Below, one piece after another: positions 15,101 through 58,901 of a DNA stretch of 64,000 nucleotides. The DNA lies in the NCBI GenBank assembly GCA_964106915.2, contig OZ066916.1. The stretch is one strand, 5' to 3'. The notes beneath the pieces are model-generated. The model saw only the letters and a program-made list of their open reading frames with translations. It ran no database searches and was not told the DNA's origin. This DNA is from Podarcis gaigeae (lineage: Eukaryota). The position numbers and the translations under genes are program-made. How positions within the stretch are numbered: position 1 is the stretch's first letter; every line of letters begins with the position of its first letter.

Positions 15101-18100
15101 CCCCTTGTTGTTTAGAATTATCGGCAGCTGCAGAGAGATTTTATGGAGGATGATCACGAGCGGCCAGTGTCGGTGACTGCTCTCTCTGTTCAGCTCTTCA
15201 CTGTGCCTACTCTGGTGAGTAGTGGTTCCTTTTTTAAACTGATAGTTGGCACCCTTTGCCTTTTTTGCCTCCTTCTTTAATAGAATTATGAGCGATTGCA
15301 GAATGATTATGTGAAAGATGACCACGACAGAGAGTACTCAATTGCTGACCTTTCGGTACAGATATTCACAGTGCCTTCACTTGTAAGTACTTAAATGCTG
15401 ACTGAAACTCTCTTTGCCCCAACTCCCACTCAGATCTAACATTAATAATTTGTTATTGTTTTATACACAGGTAATCAGTCTTGCATAGTTTCATGGATAA
15501 AATACAGATCTCTACCCACAAGGAGATTACAGTCCAAAATAGGCAATGGAGGAAAAAACAGAGGGGAGGGGAAAGAGATTCCCTACTAGTACTTCTGTGA
15601 TAGTATTAGATCACAAGACTCATTTATGTTAAATTAGTAGCTAGAGCATAATAGTTTCATAGTTGAATTCCTGTCCCCAGAGGATCCGTGCTTTAAGGAA
15701 TGGGCAAGGCATTAGGTTGGTGCTTTAGTATACTTTTAATTCATACAAATATTCTCCGTTGAGAACTTCAGTGACAGGTATGGCTGCAACAGTTTCTCCT
15801 TTTAGTAATGTACCGAGCAATTAGAAATATTAACATAATGAATGAAGATACATGAAACATGCTTGTGTTGGAGGCATTTGGCAATAATAGGGAATATGAT
15901 CTGACACGCTTTGAGACACATGCTAATGTCTTTTATATTTCAACTCTGTATCTCAGTCCAGTGAGGAGGTGGAATTGAATGAGGCAAAATTAGTTGTGCA
16001 AAGATCTCTGTATACCTGTAGGGCTCCAGTGCTATGCTTTTGAAATTGGATTAGGGTTACAGTGCCATAGAAATAACATAATTATGGGTGTAGCTATTTA
16101 AGGTGACTGCTTGAAAATTTCCAGTGAATATTATAAAGTGCTGAACATAGTATGAAGAAAATGTACTCCTTTTAATGAGAAAAGTACCAAATGATCGCTG
16201 TTAACTGATTCAGATATGTTAGACTGAATAAATATGGGTAATGTTTTGGTGTAAGGTTAAAGCCAACAGTTGCCTCAGTTACTGAAACATTTTTTCTCTA
16301 GGAAAAGATCCTGTGTACATCTTGGTTGAGATGTAAATAGATTGTTATATTGCCCAAATTGGGTACCTTTTTACAGATCTGATTAAAACCAAGTGAAGCA
16401 AAGCGGGTAATAGAGATTTAGAACAAAAAAATCATGCCAATTAGTACTTGTATGACTCTTTTGTTTTCATATGAGCGATAGACAAAGCCCTGTCAGTCAT
16501 TAAAAATACAATTCCTAGCTATAGACATGGAGTTGTAACTCTTTATTTTATCCTTCAAGGATCAGAGTATTCTCAGGTGATCTCCCACCTAGTAACTGGC
16601 TTTCCTGCCCAGACTGCTTTCGCTACAGAAATAGGACTACCTTATATACACATAAAATAATAATAAAAAAAATTATTTATATCCCGCCCTCCCCAGCCGA
16701 AGCCGGGCTCAGGGCGGCTAACAACAATAAAACAGTACAACACAACATTCTAAAATCATTCATTATAAAATTAATTCAAATCAAACCAATGGCAACCATT
16801 GGGCCAGAGCTCCGCGAAGATTGCCAAAGGAGGGAGTCAGGATGTGCCCTGGCCAAAGGCCTGGTGGAATAGCTCTGTCTTGCAGGCCCTGCGGAAAGAT
16901 GTCAAGTTCCGCAGGGCCCTAGTCTCTTGTGACATAGCGTTCCACCAGATCGGAGCCACGGCCGAAAAAGCCCTGGCTCTAGTTGAGGCCAGCCTAACCT
17001 CTCTGTGGCCTGGGACCTTCAAGATGTTTTTATTTGAAGACCGTAAGTTTCTCTGTGGGACATACCAGGAGAGGCGGTCCCGTAGGTACGAGGGTCCTAG
17101 GCCGTATAGGGCTTTAAAGGTTAAAACCAGCACCTTAAACCTGATCCTGTACTCCACCGGGAGCCAGTGCAGGTATAACCATACACCTGAGCATTCTTTT
17201 GTTAGTTGAGTCTCTTATCTCTGTCATTAGCAGACATGATTGAAACAAACCTTTAAATATCTATTTTGACATAGGCTCGGATGTTAATAATAGAGGAGAA
17301 CCTCATGACTACTATCATCTCAACATTTATGGACCACTTAAGACATCGAGATATACAGGGCAGATTTCAGTTCGAACGGTACACTGCGCTACAGGCTTTC
17401 AAATTCAGACGAGTCCAAAGCCTGATTCTGGATTTAAAGTGAGTGTTTTATACCTAATCAGGCAAAAATATTTTTACATAGATAGCCCAGAATCAGACTG
17501 TAAACTTATTTCTGCTGTACTTCAGGTACGTGTTGATAAGCAAACCAGCTGAGTGGTCTGATGATCTGAGGCAAAAATTTCTAGATGGTTTTGACGTCTT
17601 CTTGGAGTTACTGAAGTGTATGCAGGTAGGTGATTTCTTCTTCTTAAGGTACTTATATTTATCAAGGAGTAACAAATGAGGTGGTACAGGTGACTCTTCA
17701 TATTACTGTTAAAATATTGCTAAGCTTTGGAAATCTATTTTTTACAGTTGCCCCAATTTCAGTAGAGCTAAATATTTCTACAGTTCCCTCTGTAGGCAAT
17801 CAATAGGCAAGATTTGCTGAGTCTCAGCACTGACCCTCCCCTGTTGCTTTGATGCTTCTCTTCTAAATGATTTGGCTTTTTCCTATTTCTGAAGGGCATG
17901 GATCCAATAACCCGCCAAGTTGGGCAGCATATCGAAATGGAACCAGAGTGGGAAGCAGCATTCACCTTGCAGATGAAATTAACCCATGTCATCTCAATGA
18001 TGCAGGACTGGTGTGCTTTAGATGTAAGTTGTATCTCCTTCAGATGTGTTCGGATTAATATGAATGAATAAAATCGCTACATTTTCTTAAGGTTCTCATA

Positions 18101-27100: not shown

Positions 27101-30100
27101 TGATTTTCTGTTCCTTTTTAAAATTATGCAGGAGAACAAGGAGACTGGAATGGAAAGTGTGATCGAAGCAGTTGCCTGTTTCAAGTAATGTCCTTTCTGC
27201 AATCGTCTTTCTAAATGTGTAAAATAACAACAAAGCATAGCCTTCTTGTTTGTTTGTTTGTTTGTTTGTTTGTTTGTTTGTTTGTTTGTTTTTTCAGTTT
27301 CTTCATAATGAGTTACCAGGATGGGTTACACAATTTAAAAATACATCATCATGCAGCAGATTGCTTAAGGCTATTCTTAACTGCATTCATAAGACAGTAA
27401 ATGCTTTGAATGAACTGTTCGCAACATACATACTGGCAAATCTAACAAGGTGCATAGGAACACTGTTTGCCAAAAGTAGTTGTTGACAAACAAACCCTTC
27501 TTTTTTTTAAAAAAAAATATGTATATACAAATTTGTGAAAGAAGGGTAACATCCAACATAGCCAGAGATACCATCCCACCTCAGGGCTTCTTCTTCTGGC
27601 AGGTTGGGGTTTCCCTTGAACATATTTTGGGGGTGAATGAAGGCTGGGGAAGGGAGAGGAGAAACCAACAGCAGAAGCAGATTTTAATTATACAAGCAAG
27701 TCACTGGATTTTGCTTAAAAAAAAATACATACAAAAAACTTCAAAAGGGTGTGCCATGTTAGCCTTTTGCAGGAAAAATTAAAATTAAAAGCTAACCAAT
27801 TAATTATGGTCTAAACCTTTGTGGATTAAAATCCATGTCATCAGATGTACTATTCTTCTGATGAAGTGGACCTCTAACCCTCAAAGGTTTTTGCCATAAT
27901 AAGTTTGTTCATTTTTAAGATGCTACAGGACTCTTTGTTATATAGAAGGAAATAAAAAGCAATAAGGAAGGAAGGAAGGAAGGAAGGAAGGAAGGAAGGA
28001 AGGAAGGAAGGAGTACTGTAAAGGGAAACAATAGCTGTCTCTCTTCCTGCCTACACACCTACCAGAAAGAAACTGTATATGAATCCCTTAAGAGAGTACT
28101 ACTGGTGCTTCTAGTGCAGTAGTTAAAAGGATAAAACAAGGCCTGAATAGGCTAGTATCCCTCGTTCTTGAGTTTTCAAAGGGCTTGCAATTTCATATAC
28201 ATGGAACCTTTTTAGAAGCAATGTTCAGTTATTAAGGTGTGAATTCTAAGTGTTCTGTTTGTGTTTTAGGAAACCAGGACTAACAGGCAGAGGATTGTAT
28301 GAGCTGAAACCTGAATGTGCTAAATACTTCAATTTATATTTCTATCATTTTTCAAGGGCAGAACAATCCAAGGTAACAATGAAATATAAATAAATTGTAT
28401 TTTCAAGGGCAGAGCAATCCAAGGTAACAATGAAATATAAATAAATTGTATTTTCAAGGGCAGAGCAATCCAAGGTAACAATGAAATATAAATAAATTGC
28501 AAATAGATAAATATAAATTAAATTCCAAAAGATAAGTTTACAGCAATAAATCAAACTTAATGAAATTCCTAACTTGTAACACTGACTGGAAGATCTCGTT
28601 TTCAGAACTAGAGATCTTCTGTCAAAGGTTTGAATGGGTTGCTCAAATCCATATGCAGAATTCAGCTTTGTTGCCTGCTTAAGTCCCTGGCCTCAAGCCT
28701 TTGAAGGGTCCTCATTTGTCTACCCGTTACTTGCCATCAGCACACAACAGTTCCTTTGCCTATGTGATGCTTTTGCCCAGGCCTCCTTTGTTTTTCTTAT
28801 TGCCCCTTCCATCCCATTTCCTTCAGACTTCTGCATTTAACTGGAAAAGGGAATTGAAAATATAAAGGTGTGGGTTGGAAAACCTAGCCCATACAAGCAC
28901 TTTTGGATTCCTGTTGATCCATCTGATATGACCAAATAATCTGATATTGTTTGATCTGCCAGTGGCCTGGCACTGAGTTTTGGCTGAACCACATTTCTGT
29001 TACCAGGAAAACCTTGAAAGTAATACTGGGAAATATCAAAAGATAAAGCTTCTTGCATATCACTACTTCTTGGAATTCATGCCTGGCAACAAAATGTAAA
29101 AACCCAGGTGTAAACAGGCCTGCTACAAAAATAAACAAAACTGCTAACAAATCAGTCTTTTATAACAATGAAGCCTGAGTCAGAGCTGCAGGATTATTGT
29201 AGCACTCAATGTAATGCAGAAAAATAGAAGAGGAAAGTAAATGGCAGTGTCTGTTAATTTTGCAGAAATAATATTGTTGCCTTCAGCATTTGGAAAATTA
29301 AAAATATACATATTTCTTTTTTTTTTATAAGGCGGAGGAAGCCCAAAGGAAAATAAGACGACAAAACCGGGAAGATACAGGTACCTGTCTTGCTAGTGTA
29401 CGAGGGTATCCTCAGTTGTTTCTGCTTTTTAAAATGTCATCAAAAATCAAGTTGGTACTGAGCTTGATTCAAGATTTAAGAAATTTGCATCAATGTGTAC
29501 ATTCTTGCAAAAAAAAAAGTTTGAAATTTTCCTACTTGTAACGAACGGATTATAGAAAATGAAGGCTATGGAAAGACTTCCCTTGAGATTTGCAAAAACA
29601 AATACTGCACATCAGAATGGTGTGGCTTCTCCTTCATACCTTGGATCCTTTGCTCTCCAGTATTGTTTGGATAGTTGAAATCCCACGAAGTTCCTGTGTT
29701 AGTTCCACCAGCCCTTATAAGAAATGGAGAGGTGAGATGGAAACATTGCATTTGATCTGTGCCACATGATTTCATTCATCGGCAGTTCTTAGGAACAGCA
29801 TAGGATCCAGATACGGGAGAATGACAACAGAACTGCTTTTCTCTAAGATCAGGAAATAGGCTGCAGTCTTATACCCACTTAACCTGAGAGTAAACCCCAC
29901 TAAACTCAGTAAGTAGATGTTCTTGAAAGAACAAAAACTCCCGATGTCTTTTTGTCATCTTGAAAGACTCCATGACATATTCTTAAATATTTCATGCACA
30001 TTACAAAGTTTGCTGCAGCAGGGCTATACAATATTTCATTAATTTATTTCTGTTTCAGCTCTCCCACCTCCTGTTCTACCTCCATTCTGCCCTCTGTTTG

Positions 30101-41200: not shown

Positions 41201-44200
41201 CCAGTGTATAGTTAGCAGAGTAAAAACTTAAACTCATTGCAAGAGTCCCAAAAAGTAGACCAGAGGCAATTATATTTCATCCAGCAGAGCTTTACTGCTA
41301 CTGAAGGCAAATGAGCTTAATGGTCACAAATCCAATACATTGAGGATTGGCACTGTCCATAAGAAATCCAGTTGCAGCAGACTTAACTTAAACTTACAAT
41401 AACTTATAATAAGTGTAAAGCTTAACGCTATATACAGAACACCACACCAGAAGGGAGAAAGAGAAAGGGAAGCCCAGGCTCCTTCTGGCCTTACTTTATA
41501 AAAGTGAATTCTGCTTACATTATCACACTTCTCAGCATGAGCCTTGACAGAAGAGATAACAAAACCAGTTTAAGCCATCTGTACTCAGTTTCTCTGAAGG
41601 AATAACCCAAACGTCATGAACCTTCTGTTTTTTCTTTCACACAGAGAAGCTTCCAGAACCCTCTTGAATTAATTAGAATAGGAAAGATCTCTACACATCA
41701 GATCAATACTTTCTGCACTAAGAAATGCAAACTGACAAGTTAGGCTTCCCCTCAGTCAGCATGTTGCTGATTTAAATTGCATCAGACCATTAGTCCACCT
41801 AGCCAAGGACAGTGTCTAACCACCTGGCTGATAGTCTTCCAAGTGGATGTGCTGTGTCTTCCTGAGACAAAGCATTATTGTCCATAGCTGAGTGTTTCTT
41901 CATGCTAACTGTGGTCCATATTTTGAAAGTTTCATCCACCGAAGGTAATACTGGGGACTCGAGTAATAGCCATTGATTTCTGAGTGTGACTTAGGTTATT
42001 ATCACCCACTAAATCTACTTTAGACTCAGCAATACTACTCTGAAGCTCAGGTGCCATTAAATAGGTTAGAAAACAGTCTACAGTTTCAGAAATTAAATGT
42101 AGAATAATAAAATTCTGACATCAGTAACCATTTTGTATTTTAAATATCCAGCGCTGGTGCCTAATGAAAAAAGTGGGAATCTTGCTTGCATTCTTGATAT
42201 CGATATGTTTCATTTATTGGTAAGTACCTTTATAAATTCTGACAGTGCTGCAATGCCATATGCCATATATCATTAGCTTAACTTTTGGAAAGAAAGTCCG
42301 GCGCACTGGAAATAATGTCTAGCAAAATATTTTTATGAAATATAGCAGAAAAGAAAGGTTGCAGGTCAGAGTCCCACAACAGGAAGTAAATACTTGATGT
42401 ATGAGTGACTTTTCCTTTGGTTTACTGAAGTAGTGGGTCAGTAGTTAACATTCAAGGTCAGCCCTGTTTGTTGCTTTATGTAAGGATGCTGAAAAGATGG
42501 CTTTGCGGGATTGGGTTAAGCAGACGTAAATGGGGAATGGATGAGAGAATTCAATCGTTCTGTCTCTTATAGATTTTCCCCTTGTCTACAGGTGTGCTTG
42601 GTGCTCTCTTTCCCTGCTGTACACAGCCAGGATTTTTCAGGAGTTAGTCTTGGTACTGGAGATATTCATATCTTCCACCTTGTTACTATGGCACATATTG
42701 TACAAATAATGCTTACCTCATCCACAGGTAATGTGTTCTGTTTAAAGTTATGCTGATTTGTGCATGAAGGGAAACTAGAGAAGGGAAGAGAAATAATTAT
42801 GGCTTCCTGGGCAAAATAATGGTTAACCGTGATGCAGGTGTATATTGTGATAGTTGCAGTTATGCTTTATGAAACGAAAAGCATTGCTCCAGTGCAACTT
42901 TTTGTTAATGCTGCTATGTTCTTGGTATATAGATTTAGCAAGTTTTCAAATTGCACAAGGTTCTCTGGTGAAGCATCCACAACACTACAATTAGGTTTAG
43001 ACTTATTTGTTCACTTTTCAGAAGAAAATGGCATGGACCAAGAAAATCCTACTGGTGAAGAAGAAGCAGTTCTTGCTTTGCATAAATGTCTTGGCCGGTA
43101 TGCAGGAAGGTAAAATCATAATTTTTGGTGCAGCCTTTCCAGACATTGTTCTACTTCACTTGCCTTCTCCAAGCTTAATATATGTGGAAGCTCATTTCTT
43201 ACTCTCCAGAGGTGGAGCTACATGGAGAAAACTTTCTGCTGACTATTTCAGATAAGCTCTGATGAGCAGGCAGACTTTCAGGTGTTCTGGTCTTTCAGGT
43301 GTTCTGGTCTTTCAGGTGTTCTGGTTTAGAGCTTGAAAGAACCCAATGTGGGGCTCAAACCCACAACCCAGAGATTAAGAGTCTCATGTTCTACCAAATG
43401 AGCTCAGGGCTAGCTCAATGACATGATACTGCTTTACATGTATAATGTAGATGGGGCCTTAGTTACTGTGGGGTGATTAAAGATGTGGGGTTGGCCCTGG
43501 GACTGAATAGTGTTTTGACTTCGTATCTACTTTAAAAAACAATGAAGTCAGAAGATTTGGGGTGGAATCCAATTGGTGCCCTTGCACTCTTTTCACCCAG
43601 TGAAAGCTTTCACTAATTGAAAATAAAGGAATATTATTATTATATTGCTGATTTTCCTGTATCACCTCGACTCCACAGCACCCCTAAAACAGCTCTACAG
43701 AATTTGGAGACATTCCAGAACAGGGCCCTGCTATCCCATTAGCAAAGGCATCCGCTGGATAAATAAATAGTCATTCTGTGAGCACAAGGGCACCAGTTGG
43801 ATCACACCCTTTATTTCCCTGCCTGGGCACTTAATTGATGAAATGCAAAATCAATTAAATGTTTGTGGCATTTTGTGTAACTTTTAAGATTGATTTCACA
43901 AAAATTCTATATCTGTTTTTATTCTTAGTGCCTTCAAAGAAATGTCCTCTGGATGGCATCTATGGAGAAGTATAAAAGCTGGGATCATGCCTTTTCTGAG
44001 GTGCTCTGCTATGTTCTTCCACTATTTAAATGGTGTTCCAGTACCACCAGAATTGCAAGGTATAAAATCAGTTAGCCACTTTGAAGCAATAATGTGAATG
44101 GCTGGTGAAGTGTAATTTTAAACACTAAAGAATGAATTGCAGCTTTGTATATTCAATATTATAACTAATTTGTCTTGAAAATGGAAGTGAGGTGTAATGT

Positions 44201-56700: not shown

Positions 56701-57093
56701 ATACCTTTATTGTCATTGTACAACCTGTGTACAATGAAATTAAATGAGCCCCCCTCCCCACAACACTCAATCTCTTATCAAACAACACGCCACCTCACAA
56801 GTCAATTTTGCTATGTTATTTTTCATTCTTCTTTTTGATACCTGCTGCTAAAAACCATGGCTGTATTCCCATCATGACTTAAGGATACTACTGTAACCTA
56901 CTCTTTGTTGACATTCCCCACTTACTGTATCTCTCCCGTATGATTCCTTTACATTGGTGCTCCTTTCTCTGTGATTACATCACTCCTGTGCTTCAGTTTC
57001 TATGCTGGCCTTCCTTTTCACTTCATAACAGCTTCAGTCTCAAGGTCCTTATTTCAGAGGTCTCCCCCTTCTGCGGCTTGTGGCCATAGGTCA

Positions 57094-57162
57094 TCTTCTC
57101 TTATGGCCCCTTGCACTCTCTCTTGTCTTCTTCTCTTATGGCCCCTTGCACTCTCTCTTGTC
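57094..57162 (+). repeat. 35-bp tandem duplication
   Basis: tcttctcttatggccccttgcactctctcttgtc twice. Confidence 0.9.
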
Positions 57163-58901
57163 AAGTGTCCATGCACATAGAATATCCCCATTGGTCCTCA
57201 ACATGTCCAGTTAAAAGGAGCACAGATAACAAAAGCTGGGAAAGGCCTTAGAGAGCTGTCGCCAGCACCAGCCTAGATGGACCGTTTGGTCTGACTTGGG
57301 CTAAGGCAGCTTCATATGCTACCTATGCATTCTTCTGCAAGTCCCTCCTGGCCTTCTCTTTTTCCAGAACGACCTTCCTTGAACTACCATACCCCACTTT
57401 TTTATTACCACAAGTTCACACACACATGTACACTACTCAAAATCTCTTCTCAATCACCCATCCCTTTCTTCTGTCACTTACTGAAGATGGTCAAGTCTTT
57501 GGGACAAAGTACCAGGTCCAACCGCATTTGTTCACAGCACCTAGGAATCTGCTGAAGCTAGCTAACTGCTTTTTGCTTTCACTCAGGAAAGGCTTGCCTG
57601 GCAAATACATGCATGTATGTACAAATAATTAAAGAAAAATGGAAACTTCGTATAGAACAAAGATAAACATCTCTTTACGCAGCAAGCTCTTTCCCATGCT
57701 TCATTCCAGCTTCTAAAATTTAAAAAGTATTTGCTATCTGATCACCACTTTTAGAATAACAGTAAAAGTAATATACAGTCATGCAGAATAACGTGTTTGG
57801 ATTCAAAGTGCACTGAGCCAACTAGGTCATTGAACCCATTATGTCTTCTCTAAGATGCAGAAAATCCAACTTTTTCTGCATTGCATCCAATTTGTTGAAT
57901 AAAAATGTTGACCTTGCTTCGATTATTAGCTTGTGCCTATTAATAGGAGGGGGAAAGGCTCACACCCAAGTGCTGATTTGCGGCAATATTTTTCCTTTGA
58001 CAACCAAACCACTACAAGTTGGTTGCCATGATTACTTCCCAGGAAACAGCAGAATTCTCATGTCCGATTTATTGCAGTTGGTGTGTATGTTAAAACAAAG
58101 TGAGCCTAAAACTCTGAAGTAGTTGAAATACAGGAATACCTACCAAAGGAATGAATGACGTATTGGCATCACAGCACCTGAGCAATCGCTGGCAGCATGG
58201 GCTATAGCTTATCTGCTGTTCAAACCAGTGTGATCTTATTTTTATCAAATGACAAGTTGGTGTTCAGTGCACAGAAATCCAGTACAATTTTACTCTCTGT
58301 TTTTGTGCATCATGTGAACATGGCAGAACAACTTCAAACAACACTTGCGTTTATCGAAAAAATTAGAGGCTATTATGAACTCATACCATTCTCTATGTCT
58401 TTCCATTACTTGGACAATTGAATATTCTTTTGGTCTAGCAAGAACATCCAGAGCAGTGCTTTGACTACCCCCCAGAAAAGTATATTGTTGTTGTTTTTTC
58501 ACAATTATATTTGTAAACTTAAGTACAAAAATAATTAGCTTTAAACTTCCCCATTCGGTTTCCGGTAATGGGATGTGAAACACAAGATAGTGTCGACCAC
58601 TTATTCACACCGAATTTCTTATGAAATATCACTTGCCTCAAAAATAGAATTACCCTAGAAAGTATCTGCTTTAAACTTCACGTTATAGCATTTCCCATAG
58701 AAGTGGTTTTGGCTGTCTACTGTAAGGATGCTTTTATTATCCACAAAGTGCTTTATACTGTTCTCTCCGTATGTAAAAAGTGTATGTTTTGTGCATGCAT
58801 ATATATATATATATATATATAGCTGCGACAGCTTGTACCTTTTTAAAAACCGAATATTCACAAATCTCAGTCTTTGGTAACAGTCTTTTCAGCCAATAAA
58901 C

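What the first reader, a model, noticed from the sequence alone, without database searches (positions are those of the whole stretch)
28349..28499. Triplicated 5' splice site of UBR2 exon 23 with a built-in premature stop
Seen: a 51-bp unit (last 24 nt of exon 23 plus first 27 nt of the intron) occurs three times, giving three identical CAAG|gtaaca donors after 28372, 28423 and 28474. The period is 17 codons, but read-through past donor 1 gives GTA ACA ATG AAA TAT AAA TAA (stop at 28391-28393). Use of donor 2 or 3 would therefore yield an NMD target, or a protein truncated before the RING. Copies 2 and 3 share gag where copy 1 has gaa, suggesting two successive duplications. Inference: a VNTR that may set UBR2 dosage by donor competition, notable because the downstream of two identical donors often wins.
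Basis: partly seen in the sequence, partly recalled or inferred. Interest (0 to 1): 0.75.

Follow-up and report, generated by a model that had tools for sequence, protein, structure and literature searches.

The report
Repeated splice donor in lizard UBR2
In a lacertid lizard, a 51-base piece covering the end of one UBR2 exon and its splice signal is copied three times (likely two or three in relatives); this is a real but known kind of repeat, and the first signal most likely does nearly all the splicing.

Summary
The repeat is real: three 51-nt units (24 nt of exon 23 plus 27 nt of intron) give identical donors after 28372, 28423 and 28474, and use of donor 2 or 3 would add a stop at 28391-28393. 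The gene is an intact lacertid UBR2. Public contigs from four organism labels carry the unit-to-unit junction, so it is not an assembly error; contig depths suggest two units in two runs and about three in two others. It is a new member of a described class, exon-intron-boundary minisatellites (human F7 intron 7, CBS, LMNB2, PDGF, 6-16; amphioxus 'mirages'), where the upstream donor is usually the only one used. No spliced RNA could be seen, so donor use is inferred, not shown. This scan has noted the same layout in other genomes. Likely neutral decoy donors, with any leak removed by NMD. Interest 0.2.

The parts
28270..28372 (+). UBR2 exon 23 (103 nt), ends ...SRAEQSK
   Evidence: spliced alignment to named lacertid UBR2 proteins
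28349..28399 (+). unit 1: last 24 nt of exon 23 plus first 27 nt of intron 23; authentic donor after 28372
28391..28393 (+). in-frame TAA reached 7 codons after donor 1
28400..28450 (+). unit 2; pseudo-donor after 28423
   Evidence: junction contig 28368-28444
28451..28501 (+). unit 3; pseudo-donor after 28474
27132..27184 (+). UBR2 exon 22 (53 nt); exons 22+23 together are an in-frame 156 nt
29332..29380 (+). UBR2 exon 24 (49 nt), the common acceptor

Best explanation
A 51-nt tandem duplication copied the exon 23/intron 23 boundary of lizard UBR2 into the intron, and the first donor likely carries nearly all splicing while the copies likely stay silent decoys. The duplication is inferred to predate several related species and to vary between two and three units by unequal exchange. 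Exon definition from the exon 23 acceptor would commit the nearest donor, as in human F7 intron 7. Any rare use of donor 2 or 3 would include the stop at 28391-28393 and be cleared by NMD, so the repeat is likely tolerated as neutral.
For: Shown: the reading frame through donor 1 is intact over 1727 codons and 1724 of 1727 residues match the RefSeq Podarcis muralis protein; only donor 1 gives this protein. The junction between units is in contigs of organisms A (two samples), B, G and, by graph shape, D, whose flanks differ from the window by up to 37 letters in about 1330, so the gene has stayed intact with the repeat across several species labels. A de Bruijn model reproduces the contig ends exactly. 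In 6 of the other 44 introns of this gene an equal or stronger GT site lies 20-200 nt downstream of the real donor by a matrix trained on the gene's own donors. Literature: F7 uses only the most upstream of 5-9 identical donors, whatever the unit number or cell type (PMC1557585); LMNB2 (100 bp) and PDGF (81 bp) units behave alike (as cited there); amphioxus mirages do not disturb splicing (PMC3087553).
Against: No spliced RNA was observed, so donor use is untested. With identical globin sites the intron-proximal one is used about 100% at separations of 45 nt or more (PMC3413131), and the spacing here is 51. The copies share 24 nt of exon, far more than the 4 nt in F7, so they carry more exon context. 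6-16 and CBS use two pseudo-sites besides the real one. Whether the species behind the intact RefSeq proteins carry the repeat was not testable. One of 4 named lacertid proteins examined (P. lilfordi model) lacks exons 22-23.
Confidence: 0.8

Rival explanations
1. Donor competition sets dosage: donors 2 and 3 take a sizeable share of splicing, the products go to NMD, and three-unit alleles make less UBR2 than two-unit alleles, possibly more so under heat or cold.
For: Spacing of 51 nt is above the 45-nt threshold for proximal use. Copy number appears to vary. The donor lacks +5G and pairs only moderately with U1 (8 of 11 matches; duplex energy rank 33 of 45). Latent donors behind a stop were activated 35-fold by heat and 10-fold by cold shock in the CAD gene (PMC3510495). 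F7 repeat-number variation is listed among variants associated with FVII levels (PMC7849579).
Against: No RNA junction supports it. F7 unit number did not alter donor choice. No sign that the last pseudo-donor is conserved beyond chance (0 changes in 65 nt against the flank rate, P=0.23); one run carries a substitution inside a junction unit and another a unit with 4 differences.
Confidence: 0.11
2. The extra U1 sites slow or disturb removal of intron 23, causing intron retention or in-frame skipping of exons 22-23, not use of the downstream donors.
For: Contigs of two runs guessed to be RNA (organism G, two studies) cover the repeat and much of intron 23 unspliced. The P. lilfordi model skips exons 22-23 in frame.
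Against: Those runs were picked for holding this stretch and may contain DNA. The same skip appears in a whale gene model (P0063), so it is not tied to this repeat and may be an annotation error.
Confidence: 0.05
3. Two-step (recursive) splicing: donor 1 joins an AG inside unit 3, regenerating the same donor (zero-length exon at 28474, or a 9-nt in-frame microexon), so that all paths give near-normal mRNA.
For: Each unit ends its exon part in AG|GT; donor 1 to the AG at 28474 or 28465 would be a 102- or 93-nt intron, both keeping frame.
Against: Only 9 of 21 upstream bases are pyrimidines, below all 45 authentic acceptors of the gene (10-20). In two-unit alleles the intron would be 42-51 nt, shorter than the shortest mapped intron here (87 nt).
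Confidence: 0.03
4. Assembly artefact: the locus has one unit.
For: None found.
Against: Junction contigs in runs of several samples and studies, with breakpoints matching the model.
Confidence: 0.01

Closest known systems
Human F7 intron 7 37-bp VNTR (Borensztajn et al. 2006, PMC1557585; read abstract, introduction, results parts 1-3 of 6 and discussion)
   Same: First unit spans the exon-intron boundary; identical pseudo-donors follow; copy number is polymorphic; most pseudo-donors would add a premature stop.
   Different: F7 has 5-9 units of 37 bp with 4 exonic bases; here 2-3 units of 51 bp with 24 exonic bases, above the 45-nt spacing. F7 donor use is measured; here it is not.
Other human boundary minisatellites: LMNB2 (100 bp), PDGF intron 4 (81 bp), 6-16 intron 2, CBS intron 13 (as cited in the introduction of PMC1557585; originals not read)
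   Same: Same layout; unit lengths bracket 51 bp.
   Different: 10-25 units; LMNB2 and PDGF use the first donor only, 6-16 and CBS also use two pseudo-sites.
Amphioxus 'mirage' repeats (PMC3087553, passages)
   Same: Tandem duplication of an exon-intron boundary, including a 3' exon boundary (BflGb9); length-unstable; splicing reported normal.
   Different: Different lineage; units 10-160 bp; some copy acceptors.
Latent 5' splice sites with an upstream in-frame stop (PMC3510495, passages)
   Same: Intronic donor-like site whose use would add a stop and trigger NMD; such sites are in most human introns, so the built-in stop is the expected state.
   Different: Latent sites are chance look-alikes; these are exact copies with exon context.
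CBS 844ins68 (PMC1334203, passages)
   Same: Common insertion at a splice junction that is spliced away, giving mostly wild-type mRNA.
   Different: An insertion in exon 8 removed through an alternative site; that it duplicates the acceptor side is recalled, not seen in the passages.

Membership tests
Exon-intron-boundary minisatellite with 5' pseudo-sites (F7 type) | Tandem repeat whose first unit spans an authentic exon-intron boundary | tested here: met
Exon-intron-boundary minisatellite with 5' pseudo-sites (F7 type) | Downstream units repeat the donor exactly | tested here: met
   identical 16-mer at three places
Exon-intron-boundary minisatellite with 5' pseudo-sites (F7 type) | Variable copy number | tested here: inconclusive
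   contig depth ratios give about 2 units in X4 and X3, about 3 (or 2/3) in X1 and X8; depth is an indirect measure and no long read was seen
Exon-intron-boundary minisatellite with 5' pseudo-sites (F7 type) | Upstream donor dominates in mRNA | not testable with these tools
   no exon-exon contig was laid in 3 RNA-guess runs; intact frame is indirect support
Regulated poison alternative 5' splice site (AS-NMD) | Alternative donor adds a stop more than 50 nt upstream of a later junction | tested here: met
   23-24 junctions lie more than 50 nt downstream
Regulated poison alternative 5' splice site (AS-NMD) | Alternative donor is used and rises on NMD block | not testable with these tools
   no raw RNA reads available
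Regulated poison alternative 5' splice site (AS-NMD) | Conservation of the poison segment above neutral | tested here: inconclusive
   P=0.23 on one comparison, little power
Recursive splice site | Functional acceptor (pyrimidine tract plus AG) abutting a donor | tested here: not met
   9 of 21 pyrimidines, below all 45 real acceptors

The most novel reading that the evidence does not exclude
A copy-number polymorphism shared across lacertid species acts as a temperature-sensitive poison donor: in an ectotherm, heat or cold releases donors 2 and 3, and the number of units tunes how much UBR2 mRNA is lost to NMD.
Probability: 0.06. Interest if true: 0.6.

Novelty: new member of a known kind. 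Interest (0 to 1): 0.2.

Why it matters
As it most likely stands it is a curiosity. Its modest value is as a clean natural test of two conflicting rules for identical donors: upstream-only (F7) and downstream at 45 nt or more (globin constructs). It has long duplicated exon context, a 51-nt spacing and likely natural two- and three-unit alleles. If the downstream donors leaked in a copy- or temperature-dependent way it would be a simple dosage dial on a conserved ubiquitin ligase in an ectotherm.

Tried and rejected
No whole genome is held for this window, so paralogues and a genome-wide count of such repeats could not be checked. No RNA holder was listed on record; 8 of the 24 listed runs were laid. 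The 3 RNA-guess runs (X15, X17, X20) gave no exon-exon joint of any kind, not even the normal one; the tool drops human-like contigs, so this blank says nothing. Their lack of cover in neighbouring introns is likewise not evidence. X12 (organism F) gave no informative piece. X15's contig has only 16 letters left of a unit junction and X8's junction contig 30+30, both under the tool's 31-letter bridging rule; G rests on X17 record 4 (50+31) and D on graph shape. A search of shorter proteins found 0 of 250 proteins in hand ending in the read-through peptide; no lacertid transcript fragment was among them, so it is uninformative. RNA folding of 28300-28560 is no better than shuffles (z=+1.32), so structure masking of donors is not supported. 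Paper searches for UBR2+Podarcis gave 0 papers and UBR2+lizard+splic 2 unrelated papers; the library lacks most subscription papers. No look-alike note in relatives. Supplements were not read.

Full report
Observation. The sequence shows three head-to-tail 51-nt units at 28349-28399, 28400-28450 and 28451-28501. Each holds the last 24 nt of an exon and the first 27 nt of the intron, so CAAG|GTAACA donors follow 28372, 28423 and 28474. The 11-mer donor occurs 3 times against 0.03 expected, and it is the only one of 90 splice sites of the gene whose 16-mer recurs in the window.

Gene. A downstream exon matched vertebrate UBR2, best named hit Zootoca vivipara at 98%. A spliced model of 46 exons (2883-50927) has one stop, at its end, and matches Podarcis muralis UBR2 at 1724 of 1727 residues, P. 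lilfordi at 1667 of 1675, Lacerta agilis at 1705 of 1727 and Zootoca at 1696 of 1726. The model was guided by the P. muralis protein, and the Lacerta and Zootoca records use the alternative exon 11, which inflates their differences; 'lacertid, closest to Podarcis' is as far as this goes. The exon is 28270-28372 and is number 23 if one exon precedes the first mapped one. Donor 2 or 3 would give a product ending VTMKYK-stop at about residue 881, with the stop 2585 or 2636 nt before the last junction. That lies inside the winged-helix domain (798-894) and before the RING cysteines (1129-1234; the Pfam RING-H2 hit is weak, below its cut-off). NMD is predicted from the established junction rule, not shown.

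Is it real, and does it vary? Eight of 24 listed runs were laid. In X1 (organism A, possibly the source sample), X4 (A, another sample) and X3 (B), contigs break at 28393 and 28470 with a 77-nt contig 28368-28444 between; a de Bruijn model of the window predicts exactly these pieces, and a one-unit allele predicts no break. Depth of the junction contig against the flanks, and of an unlisted 34-nt core inferred from bin means, gives 3.0/2.7 units for X1, 2.0/2.0 for X4 and 2.1/1.9 for X3. X8 (D) has pieces matching a model in which all units are identical; its core/junction ratio of 1.50 fits three units while flank ratios give 2.5-2.7. The tool warns that depth is not a copy number, so these are inferences. 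X17 (G) holds an 81-nt contig across a unit junction and a second with 4 differences. X12 was uninformative. Flanks differ from the window by 19 of 1831 (B), 11 of about 550 (G) and 37 of about 1330 letters (D). So the duplication is older than these species labels, and copy number likely varies within label A. One unequal exchange inside the shared 34-nt core of a gaa/gag two-unit allele would give the window's gaa/gag/gag; the A in copy 1 is probably a later synonymous change in A and B, or D has been homogenised.

Which donor is used? Not observed: the three RNA-guess runs yielded only unspliced pieces and no exon-exon joint, and human-like contigs are filtered out. Indirectly, only donor 1 yields the intact, conserved protein. 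The donor is ordinary: rank 14 of 45 by a leave-one-out matrix, 8 of 11 U1 matches, no +5G. In 7 of 45 introns (6 of the 44 others) an equal or stronger site lies within 200 nt downstream, so downstream rivals are common in this gene. Folding gives no structural mask.

Comparison with what is known. The layout is that of the human F7 intron 7 VNTR, where only the most upstream of 5-9 identical donors is used, the next one takes over only if it is mutated, and 1-12 units give the same pattern (PMC1557585; PMC4238797 and PMC6627357 passages agree). That paper lists LMNB2 and PDGF (first donor only) and 6-16 and CBS (two pseudo-sites also used). Amphioxus mirages are the same kind. Against this, identical globin sites switch to the intron-proximal one at 45 nt or more (PMC3413131 passages), and the units here carry 24 exonic bases. 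The stop is unremarkable: over 90% of latent donors within 1000 nt in human coding introns have one (PMC3510495 passages), and the 27-nt spacer is 85% A+T. Repeat effects on splicing are catalogued in humans (PMC10078293, PMC5954066; search listing only). Searches for a report of this locus found none. Earlier notes of this scan describe the same class in other genomes; most with RNA saw the first donor used, one saw the last (unchecked).

Verdict. Shown: the repeat, its presence in several related organisms, the intact frame through donor 1, the stop. Inferred: variable copy number, dominance of donor 1, NMD of any leak, neutrality. It is a new member of a known kind. Interest 0.2; a copy- or temperature-dependent leak (about 6-11%) would raise it.

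Noticed in passing
window 15116-15214 and 15284-15382: Two tandem 99-nt versions of UBR2 exon 11, 69 nt apart, 19 of 33 residues identical, each with AG/GT ends. Of 125 long proteins in hand 33 carry only the first, 72 only the second, 14 both, 6 neither: likely conserved mutually exclusive exons across vertebrates.
   Followed up: partly
window 27132-28372 (exons 22-23): The P. lilfordi protein model CAI5771059.1 lacks exactly these two exons (52 residues, in frame); a whale model P0063 has the same skip. Real isoform or annotation error unknown.
   Followed up: partly
window 43275-43325: A perfect 17-nt triple repeat inside intron 40 whose unit contains a pyrimidine-AG followed by GT; not at an annotated boundary.
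   Followed up: no
window 28401-29234: Contigs of two runs guessed to be RNA (organism G, two studies) cover the repeat and much of intron 23 unspliced; may be DNA or pre-mRNA, and the runs were selected for holding this stretch.
   Followed up: partly
window 29857-29910: A short piece of an interspersed repeat in intron 24, matched by many other contigs.
   Followed up: no
window 57090-57163: A 35-nt double repeat downstream of UBR2.
   Followed up: no
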